29,950 bases of DNA from the NCBI GenBank assembly GCA_043803765.1, contig JAZDJQ010000005.1, forward strand, positions 1-29,950, in the 5' to 3' direction. The translations under genes and the position numbers were made by a program. The notes below the pieces were generated by a model. It was not told the DNA's origin. It saw only the letters and a list, made by a program, of their open reading frames with translations, and did not search any database. This document shows positions 1 to 20,600 of the stretch, in pieces. The first letter of the stretch is position 1. Every line of letters begins with the position of its first letter. The stretch comes from Candidatus Iainarchaeum sp. GTDB taxonomy: Archaea; Iainarchaeota; Iainarchaeia; Iainarchaeales; VGJJ01.

Positions 1-512
1 CCTGCAAAAGAAGGCGTTCCTTCTTTTTGTACGATTTCTTGTGCGGCATTCGTATGAATGATGAGCGCATCGCACTGCAGTTCATTCACGAGTTTTTGTA
101 TTTTTTGAGTGGGATATTCCTTCAATTGGGATACTCCTAAATTGCATGCGAGAAAAATATGGGGGGCGTATTTTCGCACGTCAAACGATGAAAACGTTTG
201 GGGTTTTTCTATCGCAGCCCGCGTGCTTCCCAATCCCATCCCTGTTTTTTTTTCTTCACATGCTTTGGCAATATCTTGATTTATTTTTGTTAGCGTGGCA
301 TGTCCTCCTGTCATACTGCTCACCATGTAGGGGAAAGAGAATTCGTGTTTTAGAAAAATAGTTTTAGTGTCTATTTTTTTCTCGTCTATTTCCGGGAGAG
401 ATAAATAATCCAATTCCATTTCATCGAATCCGGTTGTCTTATCAGTGAACTGCACGGACTGATTCAATGCAATGTCCACGTGTTCCGTTTTCCTTTTAAT
501 GATGCTTGGCAT
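1..512 (-). CDS. fni: Type 2 (FMN-dependent) isopentenyl-diphosphate delta-isomerase, 5' part, truncated by window edge
   Basis: Not in ORF track. Manual translation from ATG 512: MPSIIKRKTEHVDIAL...TGFDEMEL...LPEID...PYMVSSMTGG...INQDIAKACE...MGLGSTRAAIE...SFDVRKYAP...NLG...DALIIHTNAAQEIVQKEG. RKxxH, SMTGG, GLGS and HxNxxQE are IDI-2 motifs. Confidence 0.93.
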   Translation of the reverse strand, partial: MPSIIKRKTEHVDIALNQSVQFTDKTTGFDEMELDYLSLPEIDEKKIDTKTIFLKHEFSFPYMVSSMTGGHATLTKINQDIAKACEEKKTGMGLGSTRAAIEKPQTFSSFDVRKYAPHIFLACNLGVSQLKEYPTQKIQKLVNELQCDALIIHTNAAQEIVQKEGTPSFA

Positions 513-5392: not shown

Positions 5393-6670
5393 TTAAACAG
5401 TGGTCTCCATTTCTTTCTTGGTACTGTACTTCTTTTCCACGTAGGCTTGAACCATGCGTTTGAACTCGTCCTTCATCGTTCTTCCTTGGAGTGTTTTCAC
5501 TAATTTTCCATCCTCGAATACGGGCGCGGCAGGGTTTTCTCCGCTCCCGGGGAGTGAAATACCAATGTTGGCGTCCTTGGCTTCTCCGGGGCCGTTTACG
5601 ATGCATCCCATTACGGCTACGTGCATGCTTTCCACTCCATCGTATCCTTGTTTTTTCCATATGGGCATTTGCGTGTGCAGGTATTCCGTTACTTCTTTTG
5701 CTAGTTCTTGAAACGTGATGCTTGTTGTGCGTCCGCATCCCGGGCAGCTGGTTACTTGGGGGAGAAAAAATCGGTGCCCGAGTGATTGAAGTACTTGTTG
5801 GGATACTAATACTTCTCGTGAGCGAGAGGAACCGGGTTCGGGTGTTAGTGAAACGCGGATCGTGTCTCCTATTCCTTGATTGAGCAATAGGGATAATGCG
5901 GCAGTGGATGCGACGATTCCCTTATCCCCCATTCCTGCTTCCGTTAATCCTAAATGCAATGGTTGATTTGTTCGTTTGGATAATTCAGAGTAGCAGTATA
6001 CCATTTCTTGCACCCCGGACATTTTGGTTGAAATGATGATTTGGTCTTTTCTCATTCCTAATTCGATTGCTTTTTCCGTTGAGAGTAATGCGGATTGTAT
6101 CATGGCTTCTAGGAAAACGTGGTTGGCTCCTTTTTGTTCTGCTGGAATTTTTTGGTTGTCATCATCAATGAGTTTTTTTAGTAATTGTTGGTCGAGGCTT
6201 CCCCCATTCACTCCAATGCGTACGGGTTTGTTGTGTTCAACTGCTATTTTAATGAATGAATCAAAATTAGCATCGTATTTTTCTCCAAATCCAACATTTC
6301 CGGGGTTGATTCGGTATTTGTCTAACGCGTCTGCGAGAGTAGGATACTTAGACAAAAGAAGATGCCCATTGTAGTGGAAATCCCCAATGAGAGCAGTATC
6401 CCCGTATCCTTCTTCGTGTAGTTTTTTTCGTATGGCCGGAACGGCGATTGCCATGGCATCTTTTTCAACCGTGAAACGCACTAATTCGCTTCCTGCATCC
6501 GCTAATTCTTTTATTTGTTTTACTGTTTGTTCAACGTTGGCTGTGTCCGTGTTGGTCATGCTCTGCACACGCACGGGATTGTTTCCTCCAATCCCCACTT
6601 TTCCTACTTTTACTTCTATTGTTTTTCTTTTTTGGAATCCGTTAAGGGTTTCTAGTTTTTGCATCGGCAC
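5393..6670 (-). CDS. ispG: HMBPP synthase (4Fe-4S)
   Basis: [63 protein letters not shown]. Confidence 0.97.
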
Positions 6671-6741: not shown

Positions 6742-8574
6742 TTATTTTTTGACCATTTTACTTGCCGTATTCACAATGTCTTCTACTGTCATTCCGAATT
6801 TCTTTTTGATGTTTTCAGGCGTGTCGTAGGGAATGTATTCGTCTGCTCCGCCGAGCCGGGTGACCTGTACATTGGATAGTTTGTTTTTTTCTAAACATTC
6901 TAATACGGCGGAACCAAATCCTCCTACGAGGGTGTTTTCTTCGAGTGTTATTATTTTTCCTGTTTTGTGTACGAAATGTTTAATCATTTCTTCATCGAGG
7001 GGTTTAGCAAACCGTGCGTTAATGACGGCAGCGCTTATTCCTTTCTTTTTTAGTTCTTCTGCTGCTTTTACCGCATCGCGTACCATCCATCCAATGGCAA
7101 GCAAGGTGACATCGTTTCCGTCTTGTACTAATTCGGCTTTTCCGATGGGTATTGTTTTGAGTTCTTGTTTTGGTAAGACGCACATATTTGTGTTTCCTTT
7201 TGGATAGCGGATAGCAATCGGCCCTTTGTTGTATTCGTGTGCGGTCTTCACCATGTGTTGTAATTCGTTTTCGTCTTGGGGTGCCATCACGACAAAACCG
7301 GGGAGGATGCGTGTATAGCTAATGTCTAAAATTCCTCCTTGAGTTGGTCCGTCTCCTGTGATAGCGGATTTTGGAATCAAGAATTTTACGGGAAGATTCA
7401 TCATGGATACATCGTGCATCATTTCATCGAATGCGCGCTGTAAAAATGGGGAATAGATGCATACGAATGGTTTCATTCCTTCTGCTGCGAGTCCGGCTGA
7501 AAATGTAACGCCGTGTTCTTCGGCGATTCCCACATCATAGAATCGTTGAGGATATTTTTCTCCAAACTTATTCATTCCTGTTCCGGCAGCCATGGCAGCG
7601 GTTAATCCTACAATGGTAGGGTCGTCTTCGGCTAATTGCATAAGTGTTTGAATGGCTAATCCTTCAATAGAACCATTGCATTTTTTCTTGGGGTCACCTG
7701 TTTCTATTTCGAATGCGGCGTGTTCATGCCAGCGGGCCTTGTCTTTCTCCATGTAGTCTACTCCCTTTCCTTTTTGGGTGAGTACATGCAAAATTTTAGG
7801 TCCTTTGATTTCTTTCATCTCGGAGAGGTGATGCACTAATTCGTCAAAATTGTGTCCGTCAATGGGGCCGTAATACTTGAATCCTAGTTTTTCAAAAATG
7901 GTTCCGATACCCCTTCTTCCTCGTTCGTCCGTGGAGACGCTGGATAATCTTTTCAAATATTCGTGGAACGATCCCACGCTGGGGGAGATTCCCATTTTGT
8001 TATCATTCAATACGATGACCATGTCGGTTTGATTGTATCCAATGTTGTTTAGTGCTTCGTATGCGAGTCCGCCCGTTAATGCCGAGTCTCCTACTACACA
8101 TATTGTTTGGTAGTCTGCTTTTTTTAGTTTGGCTGCTTCAGCCAGTCCCATTGCTCCGCTTAATCCAGTGGAAGCGTGTCCTGCACTCCACACATCGTAT
8201 TCGCATTCTCCCCTCACGATGAATCGTGTGAGTCCCCCGGGGTATTTGCAGATAGTAGGAAATCGTTCCCTTCTCCCTGTCATTATTTTGTGCGTGTAGG
8301 ATTGGTGGGATGTGTCAAAAATAATCTTGTCTTTGGGTGCGTTAAACACATAGTGGATGGCCATCGTGAGTTCTACCACCCCGAGGTTGGCTCCGATATG
8401 CCCTCCATTTTTAGCGCAGGTATCAATGAGTAATTCCCTTACTTCTTGGGCAACATCGTGCAGGTTTTCAATCGAACATTGTTTCAAATCTGCAGGGGAA
8501 TTAATATCTTTGAGCGAGAGCCTTCCTGTTTTTCCATTTCCATTCAGTCCGCTCTCAAAATCGGTTGCATTCAT
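6742..8574 (-). CDS. dxs: 1-deoxy-D-xylulose-5-phosphate synthase
   Basis: GGHIGANLGVVELT, FD..HQSYTHK, GHAST, ThDP motif GDSAL...LNDN, TAAM..GTG, DVGIAEEH, YSPFLQRAFD, DGPTQ.G. Confidence 0.96.
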   Translation of the reverse strand: MNATDFESGLNGNGKTGRLSLKDINSPADLKQCSIENLHDVAQEVRELLIDTCAKNGGHIGANLGVVELTMAIHYVFNAPKDKIIFDTSHQSYTHKIMTGRRERFPTICKYPGGLTRFIVRGECEYDVWSAGHASTGLSGAMGLAEAAKLKKADYQTICVVGDSALTGGLAYEALNNIGYNQTDMVIVLNDNKMGISPSVGSFHEYLKRLSSVSTDERGRRGIGTIFEKLGFKYYGPIDGHNFDELVHHLSEMKEIKGPKILHVLTQKGKGVDYMEKDKARWHEHAAFEIETGDPKKKCNGSIEGLAIQTLMQLAEDDPTIVGLTAAMAAGTGMNKFGEKYPQRFYDVGIAEEHGVTFSAGLAAEGMKPFVCIYSPFLQRAFDEMMHDVSMMNLPVKFLIPKSAITGDGPTQGGILDISYTRILPGFVVMAPQDENELQHMVKTAHEYNKGPIAIRYPKGNTNMCVLPKQELKTIPIGKAELVQDGNDVTLLAIGWMVRDAVKAAEELKKKGISAAVINARFAKPLDEEMIKHFVHKTGKIITLEENTLVGGFGSAVLECLEKNKLSNVQVTRLGGADEYIPYDTPENIKKKFGMTVEDIVNTASKMVKK

Positions 8575-8694: not shown

Positions 8695-9207
8695 CTAGTA
8701 TGTTGAAGATTTTGAGCACAATAAAACCTGTGCCAAGCAAAAAATACCTTCCCCTCGTGCTACCTCGGTTAACTTATCTCCTGTTCCTGCCGTAATCCCT
8801 ATCTTTTCTTTGGAAATACCCAATAAGAAAGACAAGTTATGTTTAATTTCACCTACTTTGGGTTGAATTCGTGGAGTTAAACATTCTAATGCGATTGACA
8901 CGTTTTCTAACTCATAGGGGGAAGAATGCAATGATTCAAGGGCTTTTTTTAAAATAAAAGAGGAATGAATCGCTTCTCCTACCATGTCTTTTGGGGTAAA
9001 ATATGCCCCTAATCCATCTTTTCCTAATGCAGAATGAATGGCATTAAACAACGCGTGCAGTATCACATCCGCATCACTGTCTCCAGCTAATCCTATTTCT
9101 CCTTGAAATATCACTCCTCCTAATAGTAACGGACGACCAGTAGATTGTCTTTCAAACGCGTGTGAATCCATTCCTACTCCAATACGATAGTGAGGATCCA
9201 TGCTCAT
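8695..9207 (-). CDS. ispF: 2-C-methyl-D-erythritol 2,4-cyclodiphosphate synthase
   Basis: RIGVGMDSHAF, LLLGGV, SDADVILHA, GITA.T...L...RGEGI; Zn ligands D-x-H and H retained. Confidence 0.92.
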   Translation of the reverse strand: MSMDPHYRIGVGMDSHAFERQSTGRPLLLGGVIFQGEIGLAGDSDADVILHALFNAIHSALGKDGLGAYFTPKDMVGEAIHSSFILKKALESLHSSPYELENVSIALECLTPRIQPKVGEIKHNLSFLLGISKEKIGITAGTGDKLTEVARGEGIFCLAQVLLCSKSSTY

Positions 9208-10499
9208 TTCTTCGCCCCGAAAAAAGTTAATGCTTCTTGCAGTGCAGGATGTTTTTTTCCATACAATTCTAAAGTTACTCCTTTTTCAATTGCTTCCCAT
9301 GCTTGATGCAGACTCTCTGCTCCTGCTTTAGGTCCAGACGGATGACCAAATACACCGCGTCCTGGAACCATACTAAAATCAATTGTGTTAAACGTTTTAT
9401 ACATCAGGGGTAACGACCCGGCCCAATCACTGCCTCCTGGAATAGGAAGTGATGTATTCAGCCCGTGCATATCATACAGGCAAGCATTTACATTTGCTTG
9501 CACTTCTTCTTCGGTTGTCATCATTCTTTTTCCCAAACCCGGCATGATAATAGCATCGCATCCTGACAACCTTGTTAAACGTGTGATTAAATCAGAATTA
9601 ACCCCAAAATTGGGCATGCGGGAAAAAGCAGCAACAAAATCAAAGTGAGAAAAAATAGGTACTTTCGTATGTTTGGCCAGCATTCGCACTGCACTCCATC
9701 CTAGTGTCATCGTGTTCACCATAATAGCATTGCCTCCCATTCCTACTACCGTGTCATGCAGTTCTAACAACCGGTCTACTTCATCCGTAATATTAGCAAT
9801 GTACATCTTGGGCTGCCCTGTCTTATCTTCGGCTTTATGCATTTCATGAATAACATATTCAAGTCTTTTTTTGATTGGAGAATACGCCACATCTGCAAGC
9901 ATCTCGTCATCTTTGCATACATCTAATCCACCCATCCATGCTTCATATGCAAGTTTGGCAAAATCCCCCGGTTGAAGACCAATATTAGGTTTAACCACTC
10001 CAGTAAATAGAGGACGATTGTACACGTTTAATTTTTTACGTATTCCTTTCAATCCAAATATTGGACCGGTAAACTGCCTCACAAATGAACGAGGCAACTC
10101 CACATTCACCAGTTTAATTGCATTCATGCTCGGACAATGAAATGCCCCTTCTCCCGCAGCAGCCGTAATAAGATTAGGTATTTTGGGTCCAAAATTAATA
10201 ATAGGGTGTGCAATAGTGACTAACGCTGTTGTATATACTTTTCCATCTAAAAATTTGGCGAGAAGAGGAGTTGATTTTTTTCCTAATACTTTGCATGAAA
10301 GGACTTTTGCTCCATGTTGGATTCGAAAATCCTCTTTTACTCCCACGCGGTGCCATTGTGCTGTGCTCTGTTCTTGGCATAAATGAACAGACGCTTCAAT
10401 TGGGTCGATAGGAGTTTCTATCAGATACGTGAACTTTGCATATTCGTCTCCTACGGATGCATCGAGAGACAAAAATCCATTCATATCTTCCTTGTTCAT
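9204..10499 (-). CDS. RuBisCO-like protein, form IV (C. tepidum/IV-Photo-like)
   Basis: EQSTAQW.RVGV.EDFR, IAHP..NFGPKIPNL, KPNIG, GGLD..KDDEMLADV, ANITDEVD, PGGSD, PGRGVFGHP.GPKAGA. K177 is replaced by N, so it is not a carboxylase. Confidence 0.93.
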   Translation of the reverse strand: MNKEDMNGFLSLDASVGDEYAKFTYLIETPIDPIEASVHLCQEQSTAQWHRVGVKEDFRIQHGAKVLSCKVLGKKSTPLLAKFLDGKVYTTALVTIAHPIINFGPKIPNLITAAAGEGAFHCPSMNAIKLVNVELPRSFVRQFTGPIFGLKGIRKKLNVYNRPLFTGVVKPNIGLQPGDFAKLAYEAWMGGLDVCKDDEMLADVAYSPIKKRLEYVIHEMHKAEDKTGQPKMYIANITDEVDRLLELHDTVVGMGGNAIMVNTMTLGWSAVRMLAKHTKVPIFSHFDFVAAFSRMPNFGVNSDLITRLTRLSGCDAIIMPGLGKRMMTTEEEVQANVNACLYDMHGLNTSLPIPGGSDWAGSLPLMYKTFNTIDFSMVPGRGVFGHPSGPKAGAESLHQAWEAIEKGVTLELYGKKHPALQEALTFFGAKK

Positions 10500-10500
10500 C

Positions 10501-10926
10501 TTATTCCCCCACTATCGTTATATTTACGTTTCGTTGCTTCCGCGGTCCATCCAATTCAACAAAAAAGATACGCTGCCATGTTCCTTTCACGATGACTCCT
10601 TCTTGCACAGGAAGGGTTTCAGATGCACCTAACATCCATGATCGTAGATGCGCATCCGTATTTTTTCGATTATCAACAGGTGCGATATCGTGTCCATACC
10701 CTTTTCCTGCAGGCACCATTTCTTTGAAAAACAGTTCAACATCTTTTAATAAATGAGGCTCGCTCTCATTCACGCGTATCCCGGAAGTAGTATGCATGGT
10801 GGCAATGTTCACTATCCCTTTTTTTATTTTTGCGCGTTTCACGATGTGTTCAACCTTTCTCGTTATCTCAATTATTTGAAAACGCATGGTTGAATCAATA
10901 GAGATTTTTTCGTACACTGTTTTCAT
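10501..10926 (-). CDS. yjbQ: YjbQ/UPF0047 family (secondary thiamine-phosphate synthase-like)
   Basis: HTTSGIRVNE, HD.....N.DAHLRS, GTWQRIFFVELDGPR.R. Confidence 0.9.
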   Translation of the reverse strand: MKTVYEKISIDSTMRFQIIEITRKVEHIVKRAKIKKGIVNIATMHTTSGIRVNESEPHLLKDVELFFKEMVPAGKGYGHDIAPVDNRKNTDAHLRSWMLGASETLPVQEGVIVKGTWQRIFFVELDGPRKQRNVNITIVGE

Positions 10927-10948
10927 GATTCTTTTCCCTCACGTACGA

Positions 10949-11611
10949 TTAATAAATCCGCCTTCTTTTTACATGTAATTGGATTCTCCTCCCAAATTTT
11001 CCCCATCCCCTAACGAGTGTTGGCGCGCAGGGTTTTTTCCTAATGAACGTGCTCATTTCCTCTATTGGAATTCTTCCCAGTTTTTCAAATTCGCTCCCGG
11101 GATAAATGCGTTTTCCTTTAGGTAAAAAAGTGTAGTGGAAATGCACTCGTTCCGCATGATGATAAATTGTTTTCCCTACTTTTTGCACGTCCCGTACATC
11201 CACCCATCCCAAATAGTGCAGTGGAGTGGTAATTCCTAATTCTTCCTTCATTTCTCTTTTGGTTCCATGCAGGATGGTTTCATTGGAATGAACATGTCCG
11301 CCAATCGAAGTATCCCATTTTCTCGGGTGGAGTTTTTTTCGGTGCGAGCGGTATTGAAGAATAATATTTTTTTTCACATCGATGACAAACACATGTCCTA
11401 CAGAGTGTAAAAGTCCGTGTTCGTGTGCGAATAGTTTGGGTATTTTTCCTAGTGTTTTTCCCTTTTGGGATAACCATTCAACATATTCAAGAGGCTGATT
11501 AAGTATCTCATTCGATGGATTTTTCTTTTTCTTCGTTTCTTTTTTGGAGTATTTTTTCAGCGAAGAATAAGTCTTCTTGGGTGGTAATCTTGATGTTTTC
11601 ATATCCGCCAT
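10949..11611 (-). CDS. NUDIX hydrolase, IDI-1/YfcD-like (start uncertain)
   Basis: AHEHGLLH.V.HVFV...LQYRS..K..HP.KWDTSIGGHV..NE....G.KREMKEELGI Nudix box. The only ATGs lie inside ispD. Confidence 0.85.
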   Translation of the reverse strand: MADMKTSRLPPKKTYSSLKKYSKKETKKKKNPSNEILNQPLEYVEWLSQKGKTLGKIPKLFAHEHGLLHSVGHVFVIDVKKNIILQYRSHRKKLHPRKWDTSIGGHVHSNETILHGTKREMKEELGITTPLHYLGWVDVRDVQKVGKTIYHHAERVHFHYTFLPKGKRIYPGSEFEKLGRIPIEEMSTFIRKKPCAPTLVRGWGKFGRRIQLHVKRRRIY

Positions 11612-12230
11612 CCACTACAACAGGTTTGATCCCTAGCCGTTCAACCAGTTGAACGTCATCTGTTCCATAAAAGCCTTCTTTTAATGCTTTTTCATGTGCT
11701 TGGAGGAATACTCCATATTGAATGCATTGAGGGGTTTGCATTCCCCATAATTCATCCCGTTTGAGTGTTTCAATTATTTTTCCATCTTCTCCTACTTTTT
11801 TGATCGTGTCCTTTACTCGATAGGCGGCTGCGCTTGCTTGGTAGTGTTGAGCAGCATGAATGCATTCGGAGATTAATTCTTTGGAGATAAGAGGATTGGC
11901 TGCGTTGTGAACCAGCACAACATCATGATTCTCCGGATGTAATTCCTGAAGCGCCATTAGACCATTTCTCACTGAGTCCTGCCGCTCTTTTCCCCCTTCA
12001 ACAATTTTTTTTACTTTCGTTAAGTGCAAACGATTAATCCACTCGAGTAGAGGTTTCATCCATGCTGAATGGATGATAACCGTAATGCTTGTTATTTTTT
12101 CATGTTCTTGGAATAATTGGAGCGAGTGCGCAATGATAGGTTTTCCTCCCAGCATGAGAAATGATTTGTTTACACTTGTTTTCATTCTGCTTCCGCTGCC
12201 ACCCGCTCCCACTAATACGTGAACACCCAT
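11508..12230 (-). CDS. ispD: MEP cytidylyltransferase
   Basis: AGGSGSRM...K, GGKERQDSV, VKDTIK, QTPQ, TDD, NIKITTQEDL. The cluster context favours IspD over TarI. Confidence 0.92.
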   Translation of the reverse strand: MGVHVLVGAGGSGSRMKTSVNKSFLMLGGKPIIAHSLQLFQEHEKITSITVIIHSAWMKPLLEWINRLHLTKVKKIVEGGKERQDSVRNGLMALQELHPENHDVVLVHNAANPLISKELISECIHAAQHYQASAAAYRVKDTIKKVGEDGKIIETLKRDELWGMQTPQCIQYGVFLQAHEKALKEGFYGTDDVQLVERLGIKPVVVDGGYENIKITTQEDLFFAEKILQKRNEEKEKSIE

Positions 12231-12343: not shown

Positions 12344-12730
12344 TTAAGAATCGCTTTTAATAATGCTACGACGATTTTTGCTTCCGCAAGTGCATTTCAT
12401 TTCAAAACCAGGAGTTTCATCTTTCGAATAATCGTCCGTAATTTCTTCGCCTTTCTTAATATCTCTTTTAGCTACATGGGAAAAATTGTCCACATAGGTA
12501 TTGGCATCACAAGAATGATTGACATATCTCGTAGGAGGCTGCATTAAAATATATTTTCCTTCCGCATATGCAACAAATCTCTTTTCGTTCTCGGATAATC
12601 GGTCAACTTCTTTCTTTGTCAATTGATGGGTTATGTCCCATTTAACAACAATTTCCCCTTTCTTAAAATTGCGTGATGCAAATACTCCTTTCCCATTAAT
12701 TTTAGATTCTTTTACAACAATATCTTTCAT
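12344..12730 (-). CDS. Small SET-domain (lysine methyltransferase-like) protein
   Basis: SKINGKGVFA...KKGE, RYVNHSCDAN, RDIKKGEEITDDY, post-SET CTCGS. Confidence 0.88.
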   Translation of the reverse strand: MKDIVVKESKINGKGVFASRNFKKGEIVVKWDITHQLTKKEVDRLSENEKRFVAYAEGKYILMQPPTRYVNHSCDANTYVDNFSHVAKRDIKKGEEITDDYSKDETPGFEMKCTCGSKNRRSIIKSDS

Positions 12731-12811: not shown

Positions 12812-13960
12812 TTATTTTTCCAACAATTTCAGTGTTTCTTTCCGTGCCCATGCGTCCGCAGCCATTACATCTTCGATCGTAGGATTGATAGTGTTGTGAT
12901 GGGCATTCATTACTTGGTGAATCGTATTTTGAATATCCAAAAACTCTATTTTTCCATTCAAGAATGCTTCTACTGCGGTATCATTGCTTGCGTTTAACAC
13001 GCAACAAAGTGTTCCTTTTTTTCGTGCAGCTTCTAGTCCCATTTTCAAGCAGGTGAATGTTTCCATGTCGGGTTGTTCAAACGTGAATTGTTTGGCTTGA
13101 ATAAAATCAAATGGTTTAATGTTCAATGGAATTCGTTTGGGGTGCGTTAACGCATATTGGATGGGTATCCGCATATCATGGTGTCCTACCTGTGCCATAA
13201 TGCTTCGATCCACGAATTCTACCATTGAGTGAATAATGCTTTGCGGGTGCACCACCACGTCTATTTTTTCTGCCGGAATGTCGTATAACCACATCGCTTC
13301 ATTGACTTCAAATCCTTTATTCATAAGTGTTGCAGAATCAATCGTTATTTTTCCACCCATTTTCCATGTAGGATGATTTAATGCCTGTTCTTTCGTAACG
13401 CCTATTAATTCGTTTTTCTTTTTTCCTCGGAAAGGGCCTCCTGAACACGTGATAATCAGTCGTGAGACTTCTTTCACATTTTCTCCTTTCAAGCATTGAA
13501 AAATAGCCGAGTGTTCTGAATCAATGGGTGTTAATTCAATCCCATATTTTTTTACTAATGGCATAACAACGGCTCCTGCGCTTACGAGTGTTTCCTTGTT
13601 TGCCAATGCTATTTTTTTTCCTGCATGAATTGCTTCAATAGTGGGTTTCATTCCAATATTTCCCACTAATGCCTGAACGATAGTATCCACGCTTTCCCAT
13701 CGCGCGGCTTCATTCAATCCATTATAACCGGATAATACATGCACGTTTCCATTCGTTTTTTTCTTCAAATGATCCGCTTTTTCTTCGTTTACTAAGCAAA
13801 CGGCTTCGGGTTGGTATTGCTTTATTTGTTTTTCCAACAACTCGATGTTGCCGTTCGCCGTGAGCACTTTTACCGAAAATTCACGGGGGTGCTGGTCTAC
13901 GATGTTTAATGTTTGCGTGCCAATGCTTCCCGTGCTTCCTAATATTCCAATTCGTTGCAT
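12812..13960 (-). CDS. dxr: DXP reductoisomerase
   Basis: LGSTGSIG, LANKE, IDSEHSA, SGGPF, HPTWKMGGKITIDSATLMNKGFE, HPQSIIHS, DMRIPI. Confidence 0.98.
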   Translation of the reverse strand: MQRIGILGSTGSIGTQTLNIVDQHPREFSVKVLTANGNIELLEKQIKQYQPEAVCLVNEEKADHLKKKTNGNVHVLSGYNGLNEAARWESVDTIVQALVGNIGMKPTIEAIHAGKKIALANKETLVSAGAVVMPLVKKYGIELTPIDSEHSAIFQCLKGENVKEVSRLIITCSGGPFRGKKKNELIGVTKEQALNHPTWKMGGKITIDSATLMNKGFEVNEAMWLYDIPAEKIDVVVHPQSIIHSMVEFVDRSIMAQVGHHDMRIPIQYALTHPKRIPLNIKPFDFIQAKQFTFEQPDMETFTCLKMGLEAARKKGTLCCVLNASNDTAVEAFLNGKIEFLDIQNTIHQVMNAHHNTINPTIEDVMAADAWARKETLKLLEK

Positions 13961-14170
13961 GATAATCTCCCGGGAGGGTCAAGGTTTATTAGACCAACCT
14001 AATCCCCAGATTGCTTCTGGAATGTATCGAGAAAGGAGATACATCCTTGCATAAGAGTCATGCAAATCGGGCATTGTCGAAATAGTTATTGGTGATTCTT
14101 TGGAATTCGAGGTGGGTTTTTAACACAAAACCCGTTGGGTGGTGGTAGAACAAATAGGAGGAAACTCTGC
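13961..14170. promoter_or_regulatory. Divergent dxr/ispH control region with multi-hairpin segment and inverted-repeat-flanked TATA-like element
   Basis: Four consecutive stems at 13982-14065, GGGTTTT-TAACAC-AAAACCC at 14114-14133, GGAGG before ispH and GGGAG before dxr. Confidence 0.5.
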
Positions 14171-15184
14171 ATGGAGATTGAACTTGCCCGTGCGGCAGGA
14201 TTTTGTTTTGGCGTTAAGCGCAGTGTAAAATTGGCTCATCAAACACTGGAAAAGGGTCCTGCTTATTTGTATGGAATGCCCGTGCATAATCAGCGCGTAG
14301 TGCAAAAGATTATTGATCATGGTGGAAAACTCGTAGAGGATAATCCGTATGCTGCCTCCAAGATTTCCCGTTTTACCCATTTGGATTCGATGGATGATAT
14401 TCCGGATGGAAGCACGGTGCTAATGCGTGCCCATGGTGTTCCCATCCGGGCGAATGAAAAGGCGAAGGAAAAAAACCTCCAGGTCGTGGATACTACCTGC
14501 CCTTTTGTGACGATGGTGCATAAAACCGCCCGATTGCTGGCGGATGAAAAATATCAGGTGATTGTAGTGGGAGAGCATGGTCACCCGGAAGTAGAAGGAA
14601 TCAAGAGTTATGCTCCTAACGCAATCGTTGTGGAAAATCCGGAGGAAGCACGCAAGCTTTTTCCAAAAAAAACACAATATTATACGAATGATGAATTAAT
14701 GAAAGCAAAGAATGATGCGGAAGTAGTGGAGAAACTCCATTATCCCGTGCTCACGAAGATTGGTATTGTTTCCCAAACCACTCAATCCAATGATAATGTG
14801 CACGCGATCACGATGGAATTGCTTGGAAAAGCACGTGAAGTAAGGGTGTATAACACTATTTGCAATGCCATGCATGAAATGCAGCCCGGAGCGGTAGCAT
14901 TAGCAAGCAATGTAAACCCGATGATTATTGTAGGGGGGAGGAATTCGGGGAATACTAAAAGGCAGTATGAATTGTGCGCTAAGAAAACCACAACGCATTG
15001 GATTGAGTCCGCGGAAGAATTGAAACCCGAATGGTTTGTGGGGAAAAAACATGTGGGGATTGGTGCGGGAGCCAGTACCCCGGATGAGGATATTGAAGAT
15101 GTCATTTCTTGGATACAAAAGTATGATAAAGAAACGAATCATGTAGAAAGTAGAATAATTCGGCCCGAATATGTCGTACATTAG
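14171..15184 (+). CDS. ispH: HMBPP reductase (4Fe-4S)
   Basis: Start reassigned to ATG 14171 (RBS GGAGG). AGFCFGVKR, VHN, RAHG, DTTCPFV, HPEVEG, SQTT, NTICNA, GASTP. Confidence 0.96.
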   Translation: MEIELARAAGFCFGVKRSVKLAHQTLEKGPAYLYGMPVHNQRVVQKIIDHGGKLVEDNPYAASKISRFTHLDSMDDIPDGSTVLMRAHGVPIRANEKAKEKNLQVVDTTCPFVTMVHKTARLLADEKYQVIVVGEHGHPEVEGIKSYAPNAIVVENPEEARKLFPKKTQYYTNDELMKAKNDAEVVEKLHYPVLTKIGIVSQTTQSNDNVHAITMELLGKAREVRVYNTICNAMHEMQPGAVALASNVNPMIIVGGRNSGNTKRQYELCAKKTTTHWIESAEELKPEWFVGKKHVGIGAGASTPDEDIEDVISWIQKYDKETNHVESRIIRPEYVVH

Positions 15185-15198
15185 AGAACGCGGTTTTA

Positions 15199-15609
15199 TT
15201 GATGGATGTGGGAAAAAATATGGAAAAAGAAGACGTGCACCGTGTCATGCGTGCATATGGAAAAGCATGGGAGAAGCAGGACACGAAAACAATACTTCGG
15301 TGTTTTTCTTCGAATGGAGTATATCAAGAAAGTCGGCTCGCAAAGCCTTATCGTGGACATGCACAGATTCGTCGATTTTGGGAACGAGTGGTTGTTTGCA
15401 ACACGCGTCGCGTGAAGTTCTCACTCAAAACGTGTTATGTTTCCAAGGATAGAAAAACGGGTTTCGCTGAATGGGAATGTACGAATGAGTTTCGGGAGAA
15501 AAAAAATGCTCCATGGGTTTTTCATCTGATGGTAGGAATAATGGTTTTACGCATGCGTGCGGGAAAAATAACGTATTTGAACGAGTACTGGAATATGAAA
15601 AAGGAGTAA
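15199..15609 (+). CDS. SnoaL/NTF2-like protein
   Basis: YGKAWEKQD...F...GVY.E...PYRG..QIRRFW...AEW...GKITYLNEYW is a typical NTF2-like pattern. Confidence 0.8.
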   Translation: MMDVGKNMEKEDVHRVMRAYGKAWEKQDTKTILRCFSSNGVYQESRLAKPYRGHAQIRRFWERVVVCNTRRVKFSLKTCYVSKDRKTGFAEWECTNEFREKKNAPWVFHLMVGIMVLRMRAGKITYLNEYWNMKKE

Positions 15610-15613
15610 TGCG

Positions 15614-16510
15614 ATGAAAATTCTTTCCCCCGCCAAGCTCAATCTTGTATTGGACATTTTACGCAAGCGCAAAGATGGTTATCATGAAGTGGATTTCGTG
15701 ATGCAGGAATTAATGTTGCGGGATGAGGTGGAAATAGAAAGTGTCCAAGATTCTTCTCACATTTTGATTTCGTGCACCGACCCTGCCGTCCCAATAGATG
15801 AAAAAAACACGTGTTATCGTGCCGTTCAACTCATGCAGGAAGAATGCCGAAAAAAAGGAAAAACGATTCAGGGAGCACGCATTCACATTGAGAAACGCAT
15901 TCCTTCTGCCGGAGGATTAGGAGGAGGGAGCAGCAATGCTGCGTCGGTGTTAAAAGGGTTGAATGGGTTGTGGAAACTTGATTTGTCCAAGAATGTGCTC
16001 GCTGATTTGGCGGGAAAAATTGGTAGCGATGTTCCTTTTTTTATTTATGGAAAAACATGCCGTGCACAGGGAAGGGGAGAAATCATCACTTCTATTTCCC
16101 CGTGTCCCGTGCTTCATTTGGCATTTATTGTTCCTCCGGTTAATGTTCCCCCCAATAAGACCCAGTGGATTTATTCTCATTTTTCAGTTGATAAAGTAAT
16201 GCAGCACCCTTCCGTAGAGAATATGATGCGTTGTTTATCCCAATCCAACTCCAGCGCTGAAACGATTGCCTCTCACATGGGAAACGCGTTTGAGTATTTG
16301 GATATTCCCCAATATGATGTTGTGTTTTCTGCCATTGAGCAAATAAAAAAACTTCCCGGTGTTTTCCAGTGCATGCTCGCAGGCGCAGGCCCTACCATTG
16401 TGGCAGTGTGTGATTCTGAAAAAACAACCTCTCAACTTATTCAACCTTTCCGCATGCAGGGATGGGTGGCGTTTGCTACACAGACGGTTAAACGCGCTAC
16501 GGCTGATTAA
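15614..16510 (+). CDS. ispE: CDP-ME kinase
   Basis: PAKLNLVLDI..KRKDGYHE, KRIP..GGLGGGSSNAA, GSDVPFF, GRGE. Confidence 0.96.
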   Translation: MKILSPAKLNLVLDILRKRKDGYHEVDFVMQELMLRDEVEIESVQDSSHILISCTDPAVPIDEKNTCYRAVQLMQEECRKKGKTIQGARIHIEKRIPSAGGLGGGSSNAASVLKGLNGLWKLDLSKNVLADLAGKIGSDVPFFIYGKTCRAQGRGEIITSISPCPVLHLAFIVPPVNVPPNKTQWIYSHFSVDKVMQHPSVENMMRCLSQSNSSAETIASHMGNAFEYLDIPQYDVVFSAIEQIKKLPGVFQCMLAGAGPTIVAVCDSEKTTSQLIQPFRMQGWVAFATQTVKRATAD

Positions 16511-17696: not shown

Positions 17697-20600
17697 CTAA
17701 TGGTTATTTTTAGGATACGTTCGAGTAATGGACTGCTGTTCTTCTAATATCCTATCAAATGCTTTCAAAAAATCCGTGGACTGGTCTTCTTCGATACGAC
17801 AGCCTGCCGCGATACGGTGACCGCCTCCCTCTGCTGTTTTTCCCAATGATTTGCACGTCTCTTTGAGTGCGGCTCCCAGATTCACTCCATTTCGTACGAG
17901 TTCACTTGTAGCCCGGGCACTCACTTTAATGCTTCCATCTTCATGTCGTGAAAAAGCAACAATGGGTTTGTTTGTTTGTACTCCTCCGCTTCCATATAAC
18001 ATTCCGGCTACTATTCCCACAATGGAATCCTTGATGCGCGTTCCTGCGTCAAAGAAATAGAAGTTTGGGTGCTCATCAAGCCCTTCTGTTTGCATTAAGT
18101 GAATTCCTTCCGCTAAATTTCGTCGATGTTCTCGTAATAATGCAAGAGCGCGTTCATAATACTCTAATCGGTCTCCCGTGCATACGTGAAAGCCTATTTC
18201 GCTTGCACCGTTGCGCCCGCAGTTATGTACAACTATTCCGTTCGCGATGTAATTGTGATTTCTCTCCACAGTAATATCATAAACAAAATCTGGCTTATTT
18301 TGGATTTGGTGAATATCTTTTACTTTATCCCAATAAATATCAGAATCAACAAATTGTTGAAGATCATTAATGATTCGATTAGATTCAGTCACTAACTTAG
18401 TATATGCGATAAAGCCTTTTTCGATTTTTTTCTGAGCATTTTTTCCAGGAATTCTTCCTTTTTCTATTTTAATCAACCAAGCAGGAGATATTCCACAGGA
18501 CTTCGCAATCTTTATCCTACTAAAGCGAAGTGATCTTGGTAATTGCTGAAAATTCTTAGTTAGAATAGCTCGTTCACATTTTTTTACGCGTTCCATAAAA
18601 TAATCCAAGTACTTTCTCACACTTTCGATACTTGGTTGTTTCCCTTTTTGGTAATAAGTAAAATGTGCTGCCCATGCAGAAGGAACCCCTAGCAATTCCC
18701 AAAGTCTAATTATTTTTTCGCGTACCGGCAAGAAAAGTTCACGTGAATTAATCGGGTTCATTTTTTCCGTTCTTGAAAGCAATAAATCGTTTATTTCTTT
18801 CAATGAAAATCCGATTTCTTTTACAAAAGTCTGAATGTTTATTTTTCCACAAATCAACAACCGATACTTATTGCCAGTGCAATCACTGCATTTTCGATGG
18901 GTAACATGTGAAATTATTCCAAATCGTTGCAAGAGATATACCATTTGGTTTATCATCTTTTCAGAATGCGTTGCAAATTCAATACCGCCGCTGTAAATAT
19001 TTCCATCACTCGAAAACAACCCGCGCAACATGCCTGCCACGACAGACTTTTCTGCTTCTAATAAAAGGGGATTAAAACACACAACGGACGACTTATTGCC
19101 TTTAGGAATTCCCATTCGTTGGATAAATGTTGAAAAAGTCGTGCTGTGCCAAAAGGCATTAAAACAATTAGAATGGTCTGTAGAATAGTAACCTTTTATC
19201 TGGAATTTTTCTGAAAATATCTTTTTGATTTGTTCAAATGAAAAGAGATCTCGTGGTTTTTTTGAAAATGCGATATCGACCCCGGAGTTGTTTTTTTTAA
19301 CATGACCGTCTCCTGCGATATAACCAATAAGAAAACCTAAATCATTGTCAAAAGAAGGAATTTTCATAAATTTTCGGGAATTTGGAACACGAACCGTTCC
19401 ATTTACTATGGCAAACTCATCTTTTTCAAAAAAATCCCAAAACTGCATTCTTCTAGAAACATCTGGAATTACTTTTGAAATGGCAACAAAATCGTTTTTT
19501 TTCAAGCTTTCAGCAGAAACCCATTTGATGTTTCCACTTGATAATGACATTATTTCGTGATTTTGCGTCACTGAAACGTTCCTACCTGTCTTAGTAGTAA
19601 TCTGAAAAATGTTCATTCCTTTAGGCAAAGGGATTTCGTGTTTTGCCACAACTCTATCAGGAATTATTTTACCATTCTCCACAGAAAAAACGCGTTCGTT
19701 TTCAATTTCTTGAATTTCACTTGGCTTTCCATTTAGATAAACTTCTGTCCCATGAACAACACATGCATTGAGCACCGTCGAAAATTCTTTTGCATCACGC
19801 AAAGGGGATTTTTTTTCCTCGTGAAGGAGCGTGTACACGTCTCCTATCATTTCGTTCATTTTCCATTCAGGGGTGTTGTGCTCGTGGAGATGCATAAGCA
19901 ATCCTGTTGAGAGTACCTTTTTTTCATTCATCGGCAAATCTTCGTATGCACGCCAATTCCCATTATTGTCTTTCAAATCGATTCCCAGTCCTTCCAGAAA
20001 ACGTGCACAATTATCAGGATTGGCAGTTAGTTCTGGCAACACGGGGCTCGTTGAAAAGGTAAGATATTGGATGAGGGGCCGGGAAATCCTTCCATATAAT
20101 CGTAAATCCGTTTTCACATCCAATACGCCAGCTTCTTTCCCCTGTTTGATAACATCCCGATTTAGTCCAACAAGACCATTTCCCCGCGAGTCCTGCATAT
20201 CTCCTACTGCTCCCACGATTCCTAATGCGGCCAAATCCTTATTTCGGGTTGACATTTCTTTTGCCACAAAATAGGCGATTCCTGCGCTGGATAATTCGAC
20301 TCCTCCATTCAGTCCAAATTCCATCGGATTAATGTGTCCCTCATTTACTCCATCGCCTCGTTGATGGTGGTCGATTATAAAAAAGGGGTTGGATAATTCT
20401 TTTTGTAATAGTGTAATGTAGCTTGAACCGAAGTCGGTGAAGATGATGCTGGCATCCATTTTTTTCAATCGTTCTACATCATCCGAATACAATTGTTTTA
20501 GTGTTATCGTGTGCACGGGAATGTTTTCTCGCTGCAACGCTTTCGTAATAATTCCTCCTGACGTAAGTCCATCGCAGTCATGATGCGTGCATACCACTGC

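What the first reader, a model, noticed from the sequence alone, without database searches (positions are those of the whole stretch)
8695..12230. Form IV (C. tepidum-like) RuBisCO-like protein built into an MEP operon: candidate alternative route into DXP/MEP
Seen: ispD-NUDIX-yjbQ-RLP-ispF are tightly packed on one strand. The RLP stop overlaps the ispF start (ATGA, 9204-9207) and yjbQ ends 1 nt before the RLP start. The RLP motifs (EQSTAQW, NFGPKIPNL, KPNIG, KDDEMLADV) match my recollection of the C. tepidum IV-Photo RLP, whose physiological substrate is unresolved. Known: the Rhodospirillum rubrum RLP, from a different clade, isomerises methylthioribulose-1-P to methylthioxylulose-5-P, which a cupin converts to DXP (MTA-isoprenoid shunt). 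Inference: this RLP may feed or repair the MEP pathway. One option is 1,3-isomerisation of 5-deoxyribulose-1-P directly to DXP, which would need no cupin; none is visible here. This context would give a functional clue for an orphan RLP clade, in an archaeon.
Basis: partly seen in the sequence, partly recalled or inferred. Interest (0 to 1): 0.92.

Follow-up and report, generated by a model that had tools for sequence, protein, structure and literature searches.

The report
RuBisCO-like protein–YjbQ pair in MEP operon
A small archaeal genome carries a RuBisCO-like enzyme and a small partner protein of unknown function inside its gene cluster for making isoprenoid building blocks, and the same pair recurs beside isoprenoid and methylthioadenosine-salvage genes in unrelated microbes, which gives a testable clue to what two long-unexplained protein families do.

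Summary
ispD, Nudix, yjbQ, a form IV RuBisCO-like protein (RLP) and ispF are packed on the minus strand, inside a cluster holding all seven MEP-pathway genes. The RLP belongs to the IV-Photo family (E 3e-145 to the Chlorobaculum tepidum RLP structure).

The conserved partner of this RLP is YjbQ, not the MEP genes. YjbQ lies directly upstream in 40 of 80 IV-Photo loci, and the RLP-linked YjbQs form their own subfamily.

The pair sits in three kinds of context:
- Inside MEP clusters, in two different arrangements, in the window's archaeal order.
- Beside MTA phosphorylase and MtnA in Micrarchaeota and an Aenigmatarchaeote.
- After xseB-ispA, the slot that dxs holds in E. coli, in a Bdellovibrio-like lineage.

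Sixteen of 36 Dxr-positive genomes with the pair lack Dxs.

Best reading (about 0.4): YjbQ plus RLP convert 5-methylthio- or 5-deoxy-ribulose-1-phosphate into DXP, a variant of the Rhodospirillum MTA-isoprenoid shunt.

Against this reading:
- No MtnA was found in the window's family.
- Dxs lies next door, and the pair is accessory in the genus.
- Within one bacterial lineage, carrying the RLP does not track loss of Dxs.
- No biochemistry is available.

The parts
9204..10499 (-). RuBisCO-like protein (form IV, IV-Photo family, yjbQ-linked archaeal subclade), 431 aa
   Evidence: PF00016 scores 191.6 bits. PDB 1TEL/1YKW match at E about 1e-145 and 2QYG at 1.7e-133. All NCBIfam RuBisCO, MtnW and OiaX models score under their cut-offs. 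In the tree it falls in a clade of 6 archaeal sequences with SH-aLRT 97. Against form III RuBisCOs of the same order, KPK becomes KPN, HR becomes HF, the loop His becomes Ile and GGG becomes GRG, while KDDE is kept.
10501..10926 (-). YjbQ/UPF0047 protein of the RLP-linked subfamily, 141 aa; one base separates its stop from the RLP start
   Evidence: PF01894 scores 125 bits and TIGR00149 132.7 bits. The junction was read. The 41 RLP-linked YjbQs lie on one side of a branch (SH-aLRT 93) against 20 generic YjbQs of the same order. The subfamily has its own insertion with invariant D85 and R87.
8695..9207 (-). ispF (MEcPP synthase); its start overlaps the RLP stop (ATGA)
   Evidence: PF02542 136.6 bits. 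TIGR00151 134.2 bits, cut-off 116.45. Junction read.
10949..11611 (-). Nudix protein, weakly IDI-like; a fixed part of the cluster whether or not the RLP is present
   Evidence: PF00293 44.5 bits. IDI models score 49 and 33 bits, under their cut-offs. It is present next to ispD in the RLP-less genus members G002, G015, G014 and G008.
11508..12230 (-). ispD
   Evidence: PF01128 207.5 bits. TIGR00453 224.3 bits, cut-off 181.3.
6742..8574 (-). dxs (DXP synthase), single copy in the genome
   Evidence: PF13292 317.9 bits plus the transketolase domains. The only other tblastn hit in the genome is 26% identical.
5393..6670 (-). ispG
   Evidence: PF04551 371.5 bits.
12344..12730 (-). SET-domain protein lying between ispD and dxr
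   Evidence: PF00856 57.2 bits. tblastn found no counterpart in the relatives' clusters.
12812..13960 (-). dxr
   Evidence: Three Dxr domains at 145.6, 131.9 and 138.2 bits.
14135..15184 (+). ispH, divergently oriented
   Evidence: PF02401 268.5 bits.
15199..15609 (+). SnoaL-like protein between ispH and ispE
   Evidence: PF12680 48 bits. Also present in G017 and G015.
15614..16510 (+). ispE
   Evidence: TIGR00154 228.7 bits, cut-off 138.7.

Best explanation
The unit is a two-gene module, yjbQ plus an IV-Photo-family RLP, co-expressed with the MEP genes. [quoted passage not shown]

Proposed route:
1. MTA phosphorylase releases 5-methylthio-ribose-1-P from MTA, or 5-deoxy-ribose-1-P from 5'-deoxyadenosine.
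2. An MtnA-type isomerase makes the ribulose-1-P.
3. The RLP moves the carbonyl by enolisation, as the Rhodospirillum rubrum RLP does. It uses its retained Lys/carbamyl-Lys/Asp/Glu metal site and an apolar pocket in place of the second phosphate site.
4. YjbQ does a second obligatory step. For the methylthio substrate the likeliest step is the one a cupin does in R. rubrum (removal of the methylthio group). For the deoxy substrate it would be fixing the C3 epimer.
5. Dxr then takes the DXP.

In this archaeon the route would be an accessory feeder beside Dxs, not a replacement.

What is shown: gene order, family membership, conservation of the pair, its contexts, and the residue pattern. What is inferred: the substrate, the product, and which step YjbQ does.
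For: 1. The module is conserved.
- yjbQ lies directly upstream of the RLP in 40 of 80 IV-Photo loci. In 5 more the upstream DNA is not assembled.
- Within the genus, the UPF0047 family was found only in RLP carriers.
- RLP-less genus members have the same collinear cluster, with Nudix abutting ispF (G002, G014) or about 520 nt away (G015, G008).
- RLP-linked YjbQs form one group (SH-aLRT 93) apart from 20 generic YjbQs of the same order. They carry a specific insertion next to the conserved His.

2. The module recurs in isoprenoid contexts.
- In the window's order it lies within MEP clusters in two orders: nudix-yjbQ-RLP-ispF-dxs, and in G029 dxs-yjbQ-RLP-ispG.
- In 9 bacterial loci it follows ispA: XseB was identified upstream in 5 of them and XseA in 5. 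This is the slot dxs occupies in E. coli K-12.

3. It recurs in MTA-salvage contexts.
- In Micrarchaeota the neighbours are MTAP (TIGR01694 307 bits, cut-off 274.85) and MtnA (TIGR00512 294 bits, cut-off 279; the R15P-isomerase model scores only 139).
- The Aenigmatarchaeote locus L091 reads MTAP-yjbQ-RLP-MtnA.
- Across 27 genomes with an IV-Photo RLP (26 with yjbQ adjacent), IF-2B/MtnA is found in 23 and MTAP in 25 at E <= 1e-30.
- The window's genome has an MTAP (330 bits) on contig C3.

4. Dxs-less genomes.
- 16 of 36 Dxr-positive genomes with yjbQ-RLP lack Dxs, against 1 of 27 other Dxr-positive IV-Photo genomes.
- One RLP clade is 6 of 6 Dxr+ Dxs-.
- Of the 16 Dxr-positive, Dxs-less genomes, 15 have IspG and none has HMG-CoA reductase.

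5. Residues. Against form III RuBisCOs of the same order, the metal/carbamate triad and the first Lys are kept. The residues at the second-phosphate site become Phe, Ile and Val. This fits a monophosphate with an apolar tail.

6. Print.
- R. palustris RLP2 (Photo) slowly converts MTRu-1-P to MTXu-5-P in vitro (passage of PMC5893883 citing earlier work).
- 172 of 181 species lacking only Dxs are unexplained (passages of PMC10663253).
- Overproduced E. coli YjbQ bypasses PdxB in a way the authors take to yield a 2-oxo-3-hydroxy-4-phospho acid (passages of PMC3010111).
Against: 1. No IF-2B/MtnA homologue was found in G000 (93% complete). None was found in the other four carriers of its family: G001 (95% complete), G006 (87%), G013 (85%) and G017 (71%). 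MTAP was found only in G000 and G006 of these five. The known way to make the proposed substrate is therefore incomplete in this lineage.

2. Dxs is in the same cluster. The module is accessory: 4 of 17 genomes of the genus carry it.

3. The within-lineage test failed. Among 61 relatives of G061, the RLP is present in 8 of 11 Dxs-positive and 36 of 50 Dxs-negative genomes. Fourteen genomes have neither, and all 14 have Dxr. Something else can supply DXP there.

4. The 16/36 against 1/27 contrast (naive Fisher p 3.6e-4) is not phylogenetically independent. Only 2 independent pairs exist and neither is informative.

5. Some genomes scored 'Dxs-negative' (G062, G065) hold 637-639 aa ORFs with weak two-part matches to the Dxs model (133-139 bits; cut-off 466). 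These could be divergent enzymes. One search used E <= 1e-100, and genome completeness is not given for these genomes.

6. Deleting R. palustris RLP2 gave no MTA phenotype, and its in vitro rate was negligible (PMC5893883 passages).

7. MTA and 5'-deoxyadenosine output is far too small to build archaeal isoprenoid membranes. This rests on general knowledge, not a call. In Dxs-less Micrarchaeota the route could not be the bulk source unless lipids are scavenged.

8. The chemistry of YjbQ is unknown, and all nine solved relatives are 'hypothetical'.
Confidence: 0.4

Rival explanations
1. The yjbQ-RLP pair has a function unrelated to isoprenoid precursor supply. Candidates are another sugar-phosphate conversion, or the sulfur/stress role reported for the C. 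tepidum RLP. Under this reading the pair sits in the MEP cluster only because it was inserted there, or was carried along when the cluster moved between DPANN archaea.
For: - The pair is a clean two-gene presence/absence at one point of an otherwise collinear cluster, and most genus members lack it.
- IV-Photo RLPs sit in very different neighbourhoods elsewhere. In Chlorobiaceae the order is class II aldolase-SDR fusion, DeoC aldolase, RLP, SDR. In Desulfobacterales the neighbours are class II aldolase, RpiB, an MBL-fold protein, UPF0261 and an MFS transporter. In Chloroflexota RpiB is adjacent.
- 31 of the 40 yjbQ-linked loci show no isoprenoid gene nearby. This includes the purple sulfur bacteria (Ectothiorhodospira, Chromatiaceae), which also keep Dxs.
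- There is no within-lineage association with Dxs loss.
- No MtnA was found in the window's family.
Against: - Three unrelated lineages place the pair next to isoprenoid or MTA-salvage genes.
- Within the window's order the pair lies inside MEP clusters at two different positions. Simple hitch-hiking does not predict this.
- The tight coupling to ispF (a 4-base overlap) implies co-translation with MEP enzymes.
Confidence: 0.3
2. The pair works on a MEP-related compound but in another direction. It might repair or recycle a damaged or mis-epimerised pentulose phosphate (for example 1-deoxy-ribulose-5-P). Or it might divert DXP toward thiamine or pyridoxal synthesis, with YjbQ acting as the thiamine-phosphate-synthase-like enzyme its NCBIfam name suggests.
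For: - NCBIfam names TIGR00149 'secondary thiamine-phosphate synthase enzyme YjbQ'. Passages of PMC3010111 report low thiamine phosphate synthase activity and rescue of a PLP-synthesis block.
- Dxs needs thiamine diphosphate, and DXP is a precursor of thiamine and PLP (established knowledge).
- The module co-exists with Dxs in the window and in 20 of the 36 Dxr-positive genomes with the pair.
Against: - The RLP-linked YjbQs are a separate subfamily from the generic ones, so activities of E. coli YjbQ need not apply.
- This reading does not explain the adjacency to MTAP and MtnA, or the position after ispA where dxs normally lies.
- The thiamine activity is described in print as not physiological (PMC3010111 passage).
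Confidence: 0.15
3. The protein is a working RuBisCO of the nucleotide-salvage (pentose bisphosphate) pathway common in DPANN archaea.
For: - 26 of 61 related genomes carry form III-like RuBisCOs at 27-35% identity to the query.
- Some Micrarchaeal loci have a ribokinase-like PfkB kinase, a nucleoside phosphorylase and an IF-2B isomerase near the RLP. This superficially resembles that pathway.
Against: - The type III model scores 224.7 bits against a cut-off of 497.
- Residues that form III enzymes of the same order keep are replaced: KPK to KPN, HR to HF, the loop His to Ile, SGG to GGS and GGG to GRG.
- The neighbouring isomerase scores as MtnA (294 bits, over its cut-off), not as R15P isomerase (139 bits against 314).
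Confidence: 0.01

Closest known systems
MTA-isoprenoid shunt of Rhodospirillum rubrum and R. palustris (MtnP, MtnA, DeepYkr-clade RLP, cupin methylsulfurylase, giving DXP)
   Same: An RLP is genetically tied to MtnP/MtnA (Micrarchaeota, Aenigmatarchaeota) and to MEP or isoprenoid genes. A second small protein is always paired with the RLP. The product is expected to enter at Dxr.
   Different: The RLP belongs to the IV-Photo family, not DeepYkr. The partner is a YjbQ/UPF0047 protein, not a cupin. No cupin family was hit by any of the 30 window ORFs scanned. No MtnA was found in the window's family. No activity has been shown.
Chlorobaculum tepidum RLP (1TEL/1YKW) and R. palustris RLP2 (2QYG), the studied IV-Photo RLPs
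   Same: They are in the same family: E about 1e-145 and 1.7e-133, and about 50-55% identity to the Chlorobiaceae loci. The pattern of kept and replaced active-site residues is the same.
   Different: The window protein lies in a yjbQ-linked archaeal subclade. The Chlorobiaceae proteins are nested in a derived clade that lacks yjbQ and sits between aldolase and SDR genes. Two near-site positions differ: HFDF and GSDW here against HFPF and GSDS there.
DHAP shunt for MTA and 5'-deoxyadenosine (MtnP or MtnN+MtnK, MtnA, class II aldolase Ald2)
   Same: It has the same upstream steps and the same pentulose-1-phosphate branch point (passages of PMC6302742; abstracts of PMC6079011 and PMC10986504 as shown in the listing).
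   Different: The branch-point compound would be isomerised toward DXP rather than cleaved. No class II aldolase lies next to the yjbQ-linked RLPs, though one does lie next to the Desulfobacterales and Chlorobiaceae RLPs.
Canonical xseB-ispA-dxs operon (E. coli K-12)
   Same: In 9 bacterial loci the order ispA-[next gene] is kept, with XseB identified upstream in 5 and XseA in 5.
   Different: The slot after ispA holds yjbQ-RLP instead of dxs. Six of these 9 genomes have no Dxs over the cut-off.
Bacterial-type MEP cluster of Woesearchaeota (Castelle et al. 2021, PMC8204110)
   Same: Co-located MEP genes in small DPANN genomes, as their text describes (passages seen).
   Different: The passages I saw mention UbiA and fatty-acid genes as neighbours, not an RLP or YjbQ.

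Membership tests
Form IV RuBisCO-like protein, IV-Photo family | RuBisCO large-subunit catalytic domain | tested here: met
   PF00016 scores 191.6 bits (cut-off 30.1) over residues 150-427.
Form IV RuBisCO-like protein, IV-Photo family | Closest relatives are the C. tepidum RLP and R. palustris RLP2, well apart from other RLP and RuBisCO groups | tested here: met
   E 2.9e-145, 1.1e-144 and 1.7e-133, against 7.7e-62 for the next structure. In the tree it groups with 81 IV-Photo sequences on a branch with SH-aLRT 100 against form III.
Form IV RuBisCO-like protein, IV-Photo family | Metal/carbamate residues kept, while several RuBisCO substrate-binding residues are replaced | tested here: met
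   Alignment with three form III enzymes of the same order gives this pattern: K170 kept, KPK to KPN, KDDE kept (K196, D198, E199), HR to H285-F286, loop His to I318, GGG to G-R381-G. The correspondence to spinach numbering (K175, K177, K201, D203, E204, H294, R295, H327, G403) is recalled, not computed.
Bona fide RuBisCO (form III) | Scores over the curated type III model and keeps the full active-site set | tested here: not met
   TIGR03326 scores 224.7 bits against a cut-off of 497.45.
MtnW/YkrW DK-MTP-1-P enolase | Scores over the curated MtnW models | tested here: not met
   NF007095 scores 201.8 against 409. TIGR03332 scores 161.5 against 513.6.
OiaX 3-oxo-isoapionate-4-P decarboxylase (apiose RLP) | Scores over the curated OiaX model | tested here: not met
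   NF042437 scores 236.8 against 700. It is the best NCBIfam hit but far under its cut-off.
MTA-isoprenoid shunt (R. rubrum type) | MTA phosphorylase in the genome | tested here: met
   G000 contig C3 (L112:1383-2156, minus strand) scores 329.6 bits on TIGR01694, cut-off 274.85.
MTA-isoprenoid shunt (R. rubrum type) | MTR-1-P isomerase MtnA in the genome | tested here: not met
   PF01008 has no match in G000. tblastn with a Micrarchaeal MtnA gives no hit. PF01008 is also absent from G001, G006, G013 and G017. The genome is 93.5% complete.
MTA-isoprenoid shunt (R. rubrum type) | DeepYkr-clade RLP with an adjacent cupin methylsulfurylase | tested here: not met
   The RLP is IV-Photo. No cupin family was hit by any of the 30 window ORFs scanned. 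The neighbour is YjbQ.
MTA-isoprenoid shunt (R. rubrum type) | Conversion of MTRu-1-P to MTXu-5-P and then to DXP | not testable with these tools
   Needs enzyme assays. The only information is in print: R. palustris RLP2 is slow in vitro and has no in vivo role (PMC5893883 passages).
YjbQ / UPF0047 | Scores over the Pfam and NCBIfam family models | tested here: met
   PF01894 scores 125 bits (cut-off 27). TIGR00149 scores 132.7 bits (cut-off 67.75). Nine solved relatives are all named as hypothetical.
RLP-linked YjbQ subfamily (defined here) | Groups with YjbQs encoded next to IV-Photo RLPs and carries the D85/R87 insertion | tested here: met
   41 linked against 20 generic YjbQs fall on one branch, SH-aLRT 93. 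D85 and R87 are invariant in the linked set and absent from the generic set.

The most novel reading that the evidence does not exclude
YjbQ plus the IV-Photo-type RLP form a thiamine-independent, Dxs-independent DXP-forming system fed from S-adenosylmethionine by-products. It would be the only source of DXP in the Dxs-less Micrarchaeota, and in those Dxs-less members of the G061 bacterial lineage that carry the pair. It would also assign a first physiological function both to the UPF0047/YjbQ family and to the IV-Photo RLPs.
Probability: 0.2. Interest if true: 0.9.

Novelty: new variant of a known kind. Interest (0 to 1): 0.72.

Why it matters
- Two orphan families. The IV-Photo RLPs and the YjbQ/UPF0047 proteins are both structurally solved but functionally unassigned. 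This work shows they form a conserved, co-evolving gene pair whose neighbours point to one short stretch of metabolism: MTA or 5'-deoxyadenosine salvage into DXP. An open question becomes a four-enzyme in vitro experiment and a dxs-rescue experiment.
- Dxs-less MEP pathways. The finding bears on a puzzle stated in print: 172 of 181 species that lack only Dxs are unexplained (PMC10663253 passages). The work adds Micrarchaeota and a bacterial lineage in which 50 of 61 sampled genomes lack Dxs.
- Limit. My own within-lineage test shows that the pair cannot be the whole answer to that puzzle.
- DPANN biology. The module would show SAM-waste recycling wired directly into a laterally acquired bacterial isoprenoid pathway.

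Tried and rejected
- Complex prediction on RLP and YjbQ alignments returned 'no answer' (score 0.00). I draw nothing from it.
- The look-up of sequencing runs listed no run, so no RNA holder is listed.
- The metagenome-contig scan with the window RLP gave only 3 loci at 51% identity. I did not analyse them further.
- The unknown roughly 250-aa gene downstream of the RLP in 6 bacterial loci ('c19') has no Pfam or NCBIfam hit. In the protein atlas it gave only sub-threshold hits to unnamed Acidobacteriota clusters (best 0.88) and weak PEGA/BamE-like fold matches. I dropped it as a candidate enzyme.
- The independent-pairs test of yjbQ adjacency against Dxs absence has only 2 pairs and no power.
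- The weak UPF0047 remnant in G005 (19 bits, one stop) lies in a 20-kb stretch that gave no hit to any window protein. It is therefore not a relic inside a MEP cluster.
- I considered and rejected RuBP as substrate, via β-elimination of the C1 phosphate followed by reduction to DXP. The Micrarchaeal PfkB/phosphorylase/IF-2B neighbours prompted the idea. The second-phosphate site is apolar, and the isomerase scores as MtnA, not as R15P isomerase.
- Supplements were not opened. Castelle 2021 Table S4 and the PMC10663253 tables may already list RLP or YjbQ neighbours, or the Dxs-less species.
- My claim that the yjbQ-RLP link is not in print rests only. In one search none of the 25 listed papers (of 62 holding two or more terms) held YjbQ or UPF0047, so none paired either name with an RLP term.

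Full report
**What is there.**
- The window is contig C5 of a 1.02-Mb genome, 93.5% complete, in 19 contigs.
- On the minus strand lie ispG (5393-6670), dxs (6742-8574), ispF (8695-9207), an RLP (9204-10499), yjbQ (10501-10926), a Nudix gene (10949-11611), ispD (11508-12230), a SET-domain gene (12344-12730) and dxr (12812-13960).
- Facing them on the plus strand are ispH (14135-15184), a SnoaL-like gene (15199-15609) and ispE (15614-16510).
- All seven MEP enzymes are therefore in one cluster, and each is single-copy in the genome.
- The RLP stop overlaps the ispF start (ATGA). One base separates the yjbQ stop from the RLP start.
- An intein-bearing DHH-CID protein and a Rad50 in the window, and the 'archaeon' titles of the closest syntenic loci, indicate a small archaeon.
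- Castelle et al. 2021 describe co-located MEP genes in a clade of Woesearchaeota (passages of PMC8204110). I did not verify the phylum.
- No HMG-CoA reductase was found by tblastn with a Micrarchaeal query, so MEP looks like the only isoprenoid route.

**What the RLP is.**
- It matches the solved C. tepidum RLP at E 2.9e-145 and R. palustris RLP2 at 1.7e-133. The next structure is at 7.7e-62.
- Every curated NCBIfam model (type III RuBisCO, MtnW, OiaX) scores far under its cut-off.
- I aligned it with form III RuBisCOs from the same archaeal order. It keeps the first lysine of the K-P-K motif and the K-D-D-E metal/carbamate motif.
- It has N for the second lysine, F after the conserved H (H-R becomes H-F), I for the loop histidine, and G-R-G for G-G-G.
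- The positions that bind the second phosphate in RuBisCO have become apolar. This fits a monophosphate with a methyl or methylthio tail. The mapping to spinach residue numbers is from memory.
- It is the only RuBisCO-family gene in the genome.

**The conserved partner is YjbQ.**
- Among 61 related genomes, close RLP homologues (61-74% identity) occur only in G000, G001, G006, G013, G017 and G029. Twenty-six others have 27-35% identical form III-like genes.
- In every related locus where the upstream DNA is assembled (5 of 6 loci), yjbQ is directly upstream. All 6 loci are flanked by MEP genes.
- In the genus, UPF0047 genes were found only in RLP carriers.
- RLP-less members have the same collinear cluster, with Nudix abutting ispF (G002, G014) or about 520 nt away (G015, G008). 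The pair is a clean two-gene indel.
- G029, from another family of the order, has a different arrangement: dxs-yjbQ-RLP-ispG.
- A scan of species-representative genomes found 447 relatives and kept the 80 closest to my query alignment. This sample is biased toward the query.
- In 40 of the 80, yjbQ lies directly upstream of the RLP. In 5 more the upstream DNA is missing.
- In an RLP tree rooted on four form III sequences (a long branch, with an unresolved base), the yjbQ-linked lineages are basal. They are the window's clade, Micrarchaeota, an Aenigmatarchaeote and Bdellovibrio-like bacteria.
- The lineages without yjbQ (Chlorobiaceae; Desulfobacterales and Chloroflexota) are nested. The 'no yjbQ' label needs 3 changes on the tree.
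- The 41 RLP-linked YjbQs lie on one side of a branch (SH-aLRT 93) against 20 generic YjbQs from the same order. Their subgroups mirror the RLP tree.
- The linked YjbQs share an insertion after the conserved histidine, with invariant D85 and R87, that the generic ones lack.
- All nine solved YjbQ relatives are 'hypothetical'.

**What the neighbours say.** I clustered neighbour ORFs within 8 kb of the RLP and annotated cluster representatives. This gave distinct contexts:
- (a) In the window's order, MEP genes.
- (b) In Micrarchaeota:
  - an MTA phosphorylase, shown within 5.5 kb in 4 Micrarchaeal loci and in the Aenigmatarchaeote locus L091;
  - an MtnA-type isomerase (4 loci), which scores as MtnA (294 bits, cut-off 279) and not as R15P isomerase (139 against 314);
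  - a ribokinase-like PfkB kinase (3 loci).
- In Aenigmatarchaeota, locus L091 reads MTAP-yjbQ-RLP-MtnA.
- (c) In nine bacterial loci (L041-L046, L066, L082, L097), ispA-yjbQ-RLP, with XseB identified upstream in five and XseA in five. In E. coli K-12 the order is xseB-ispA-dxs, so the pair sits where dxs normally sits.
- (d) In purple sulfur bacteria, yjbQ-RLP has no recognisable partner genes.
- (e) Without yjbQ: in Chlorobiaceae, aldolase-SDR fusion, DeoC aldolase, RLP, SDR. In Desulfobacterales, class II aldolase, RpiB, MBL, UPF0261 and MFS. In Chloroflexota, RpiB.

**Dxs-less genomes.**
- Across the 80 genomes behind those loci, 63 have Dxr over its cut-off.
- Of the 36 Dxr-positive genomes with yjbQ-RLP, 16 have no Dxs over its cut-off: 5 Micrarchaeota and 11 bacteria.
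- Of the other 27 Dxr-positive genomes, 1 lacks Dxs.
- One well-supported RLP clade (L043, L044, L045, L052, L064, L082) is 6 of 6 Dxr+ Dxs-.
- I scanned 21 Dxs-less genomes for two further markers: the 16 above, plus 5 Micrarchaeota in which no full-length Dxr was found. IspG is present in 17 and HMG-CoA reductase in 1.
- Of 27 IV-Photo RLP genomes checked (26 with yjbQ adjacent), 23 have an IF-2B/MtnA match and 25 an MTAP match.
- In print, 181 of about 4,400 species lack only Dxs, and 172 of them are unexplained (passages of PMC10663253).

**Results against the simple story.**
- First, the naive contrast (Fisher p 3.6e-4) is not independent of phylogeny. Only two independent pairs exist, and neither is informative.
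- Second, I sampled 61 relatives of one Dxs-less carrier (G061):
  - Only 11 have Dxs (E <= 1e-100) and 44 have the RLP.
  - The RLP is present in 8 of 11 Dxs-positive and 36 of 50 Dxs-negative genomes, so there is no association.
  - The 14 genomes with neither gene all have Dxr. Some other source of DXP must exist in that lineage.
  - In three of four such genomes examined, ispA is followed by a zinc-dependent alcohol dehydrogenase, and in two by UbiD as well.
  - Some 'Dxs-negative' genomes also hold 637-639 aa ORFs with weak two-part matches to the Dxs model.
- Third, in the window's own family no IF-2B/MtnA homologue was found in any of the five carriers. MTAP was found in only two of them, G000 and G006. 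It was also found in 1 of 5 non-carriers.
- Fourth, the pair is accessory in the genus and co-exists with Dxs.
- Fifth, the R. palustris Photo RLP has no detectable role in MTA metabolism in vivo (passages of PMC5893883).

**Reading.**
- The most economical explanation of all contexts together is this. The yjbQ-linked IV-Photo RLPs and their YjbQ partners act on the pentulose-1-phosphate made by MtnP and MtnA from MTA and/or 5'-deoxyadenosine, and deliver a five-carbon product to Dxr.
- The strict pairing argues for two chemical steps.
- In this archaeon the route would top up Dxs from SAM waste. The missing MtnA means that one step is done by an unknown enzyme, or the substrate comes from a host, or the reading is wrong.
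- I put the reading at about 0.4, an unrelated function that hitch-hiked at 0.3, and a MEP-related but different role (repair or vitamin branch) at 0.15.

**Novelty.**
- I found no paper that pairs YjbQ or UPF0047 with an RLP.
- I found none that proposes an IV-Photo RLP as a DXP source.
- Jaffe et al. report IV-Photo-like RLPs in Parcubacteria and one Micrarchaeote, and suggest a stress role (passages of PMC6389311).
- Supplements that might list these neighbours could not be opened.
- If the reading is true, this is a new variant of a known kind of pathway, and a first functional handle on two orphan families.

Noticed in passing
window 17697-20699 (-): A 1000-aa DHH/DHH-CID/DHHA1 protein (GAN/RecJ-Cdc45-like) is interrupted by an intein with a LAGLIDADG domain. 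In relatives the two halves align contiguously without the insert.
   Followed up: partly
window 11508-11611: The ispD and Nudix ORFs overlap by 104 nt. Overlaps of about 70-100 nt recur in G002, G014 and G013. Either the overlap is real or the true Nudix start lies further downstream.
   Followed up: no
window 12344-12730 (-): A SET-domain protein lies between ispD and dxr. tblastn found no counterpart in the relatives' MEP clusters.
   Followed up: no
L112 (G000 contig C3) 1383-3160: The genome's MTA phosphorylase lies next to a methyltransferase whose best NCBIfam hit is geranyl diphosphate 2-C-methyltransferase (174 bits, cut-off 400). This is a second, weak SAM-isoprenoid juxtaposition.
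   Followed up: no
Relatives of G061 (G141-G187 and others): In this bacterial lineage only 11 of 61 sampled genomes have Dxs. Dxr was found in all 25 Dxs-less members that I tested. The source of DXP is unknown for at least the 14 that also lack the RLP.
   Followed up: partly
L134 4919-5935, L136 5556-6578, L137 5149-6258: In RLP-less, Dxs-less relatives of G061, the gene after ispA is a zinc-dependent alcohol dehydrogenase. It is on the same strand in 2 of 4 genomes and on the opposite strand in 1. UbiD follows in 2.
   Followed up: no
Genomes behind L033, L034, L035, L036, L039: These Micrarchaeota have Dxr and IspG, on the same contig in four of the five, but no Dxs and no HMG-CoA reductase. 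The MEP pathway has not been stressed for this phylum in the passages I read.
   Followed up: partly
L072, L076, L083, L094, L095, L098, L099, L103, L104, L105: The Chlorobiaceae RLPs sit in a fixed order: class II aldolase-SDR fusion, DeoC-type aldolase, RLP, SDR, LptE. This may be a separate clue to the C. tepidum-type function.
   Followed up: no
L053, L055, L058, L063, L069, L088: The Desulfobacterales and Desulfocapsaceae RLPs sit with class II aldolase, RpiB, an MFS transporter, an MBL-fold protein and UPF0261.
   Followed up: no
G029:C12:10471-11763: The RLP of G029 carries one in-frame TGA. It may be a pseudogene, a sequencing error or recoding.
   Followed up: no
G001 contigs C7 and C34: G001 holds two different yjbQ-RLP loci (74% and 71% identical to the window RLP), each on a MEP-cluster fragment. 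This could be two strains in one bin or a duplication.
   Followed up: no
window 3-512 (-) and G000 contig C6 end: An FMN-dependent-dehydrogenase-like fragment, possibly a type 2 IPP isomerase, runs off the window start. Its first 46 residues recur identically at the end of contig C6, so the two contigs probably abut.
   Followed up: no
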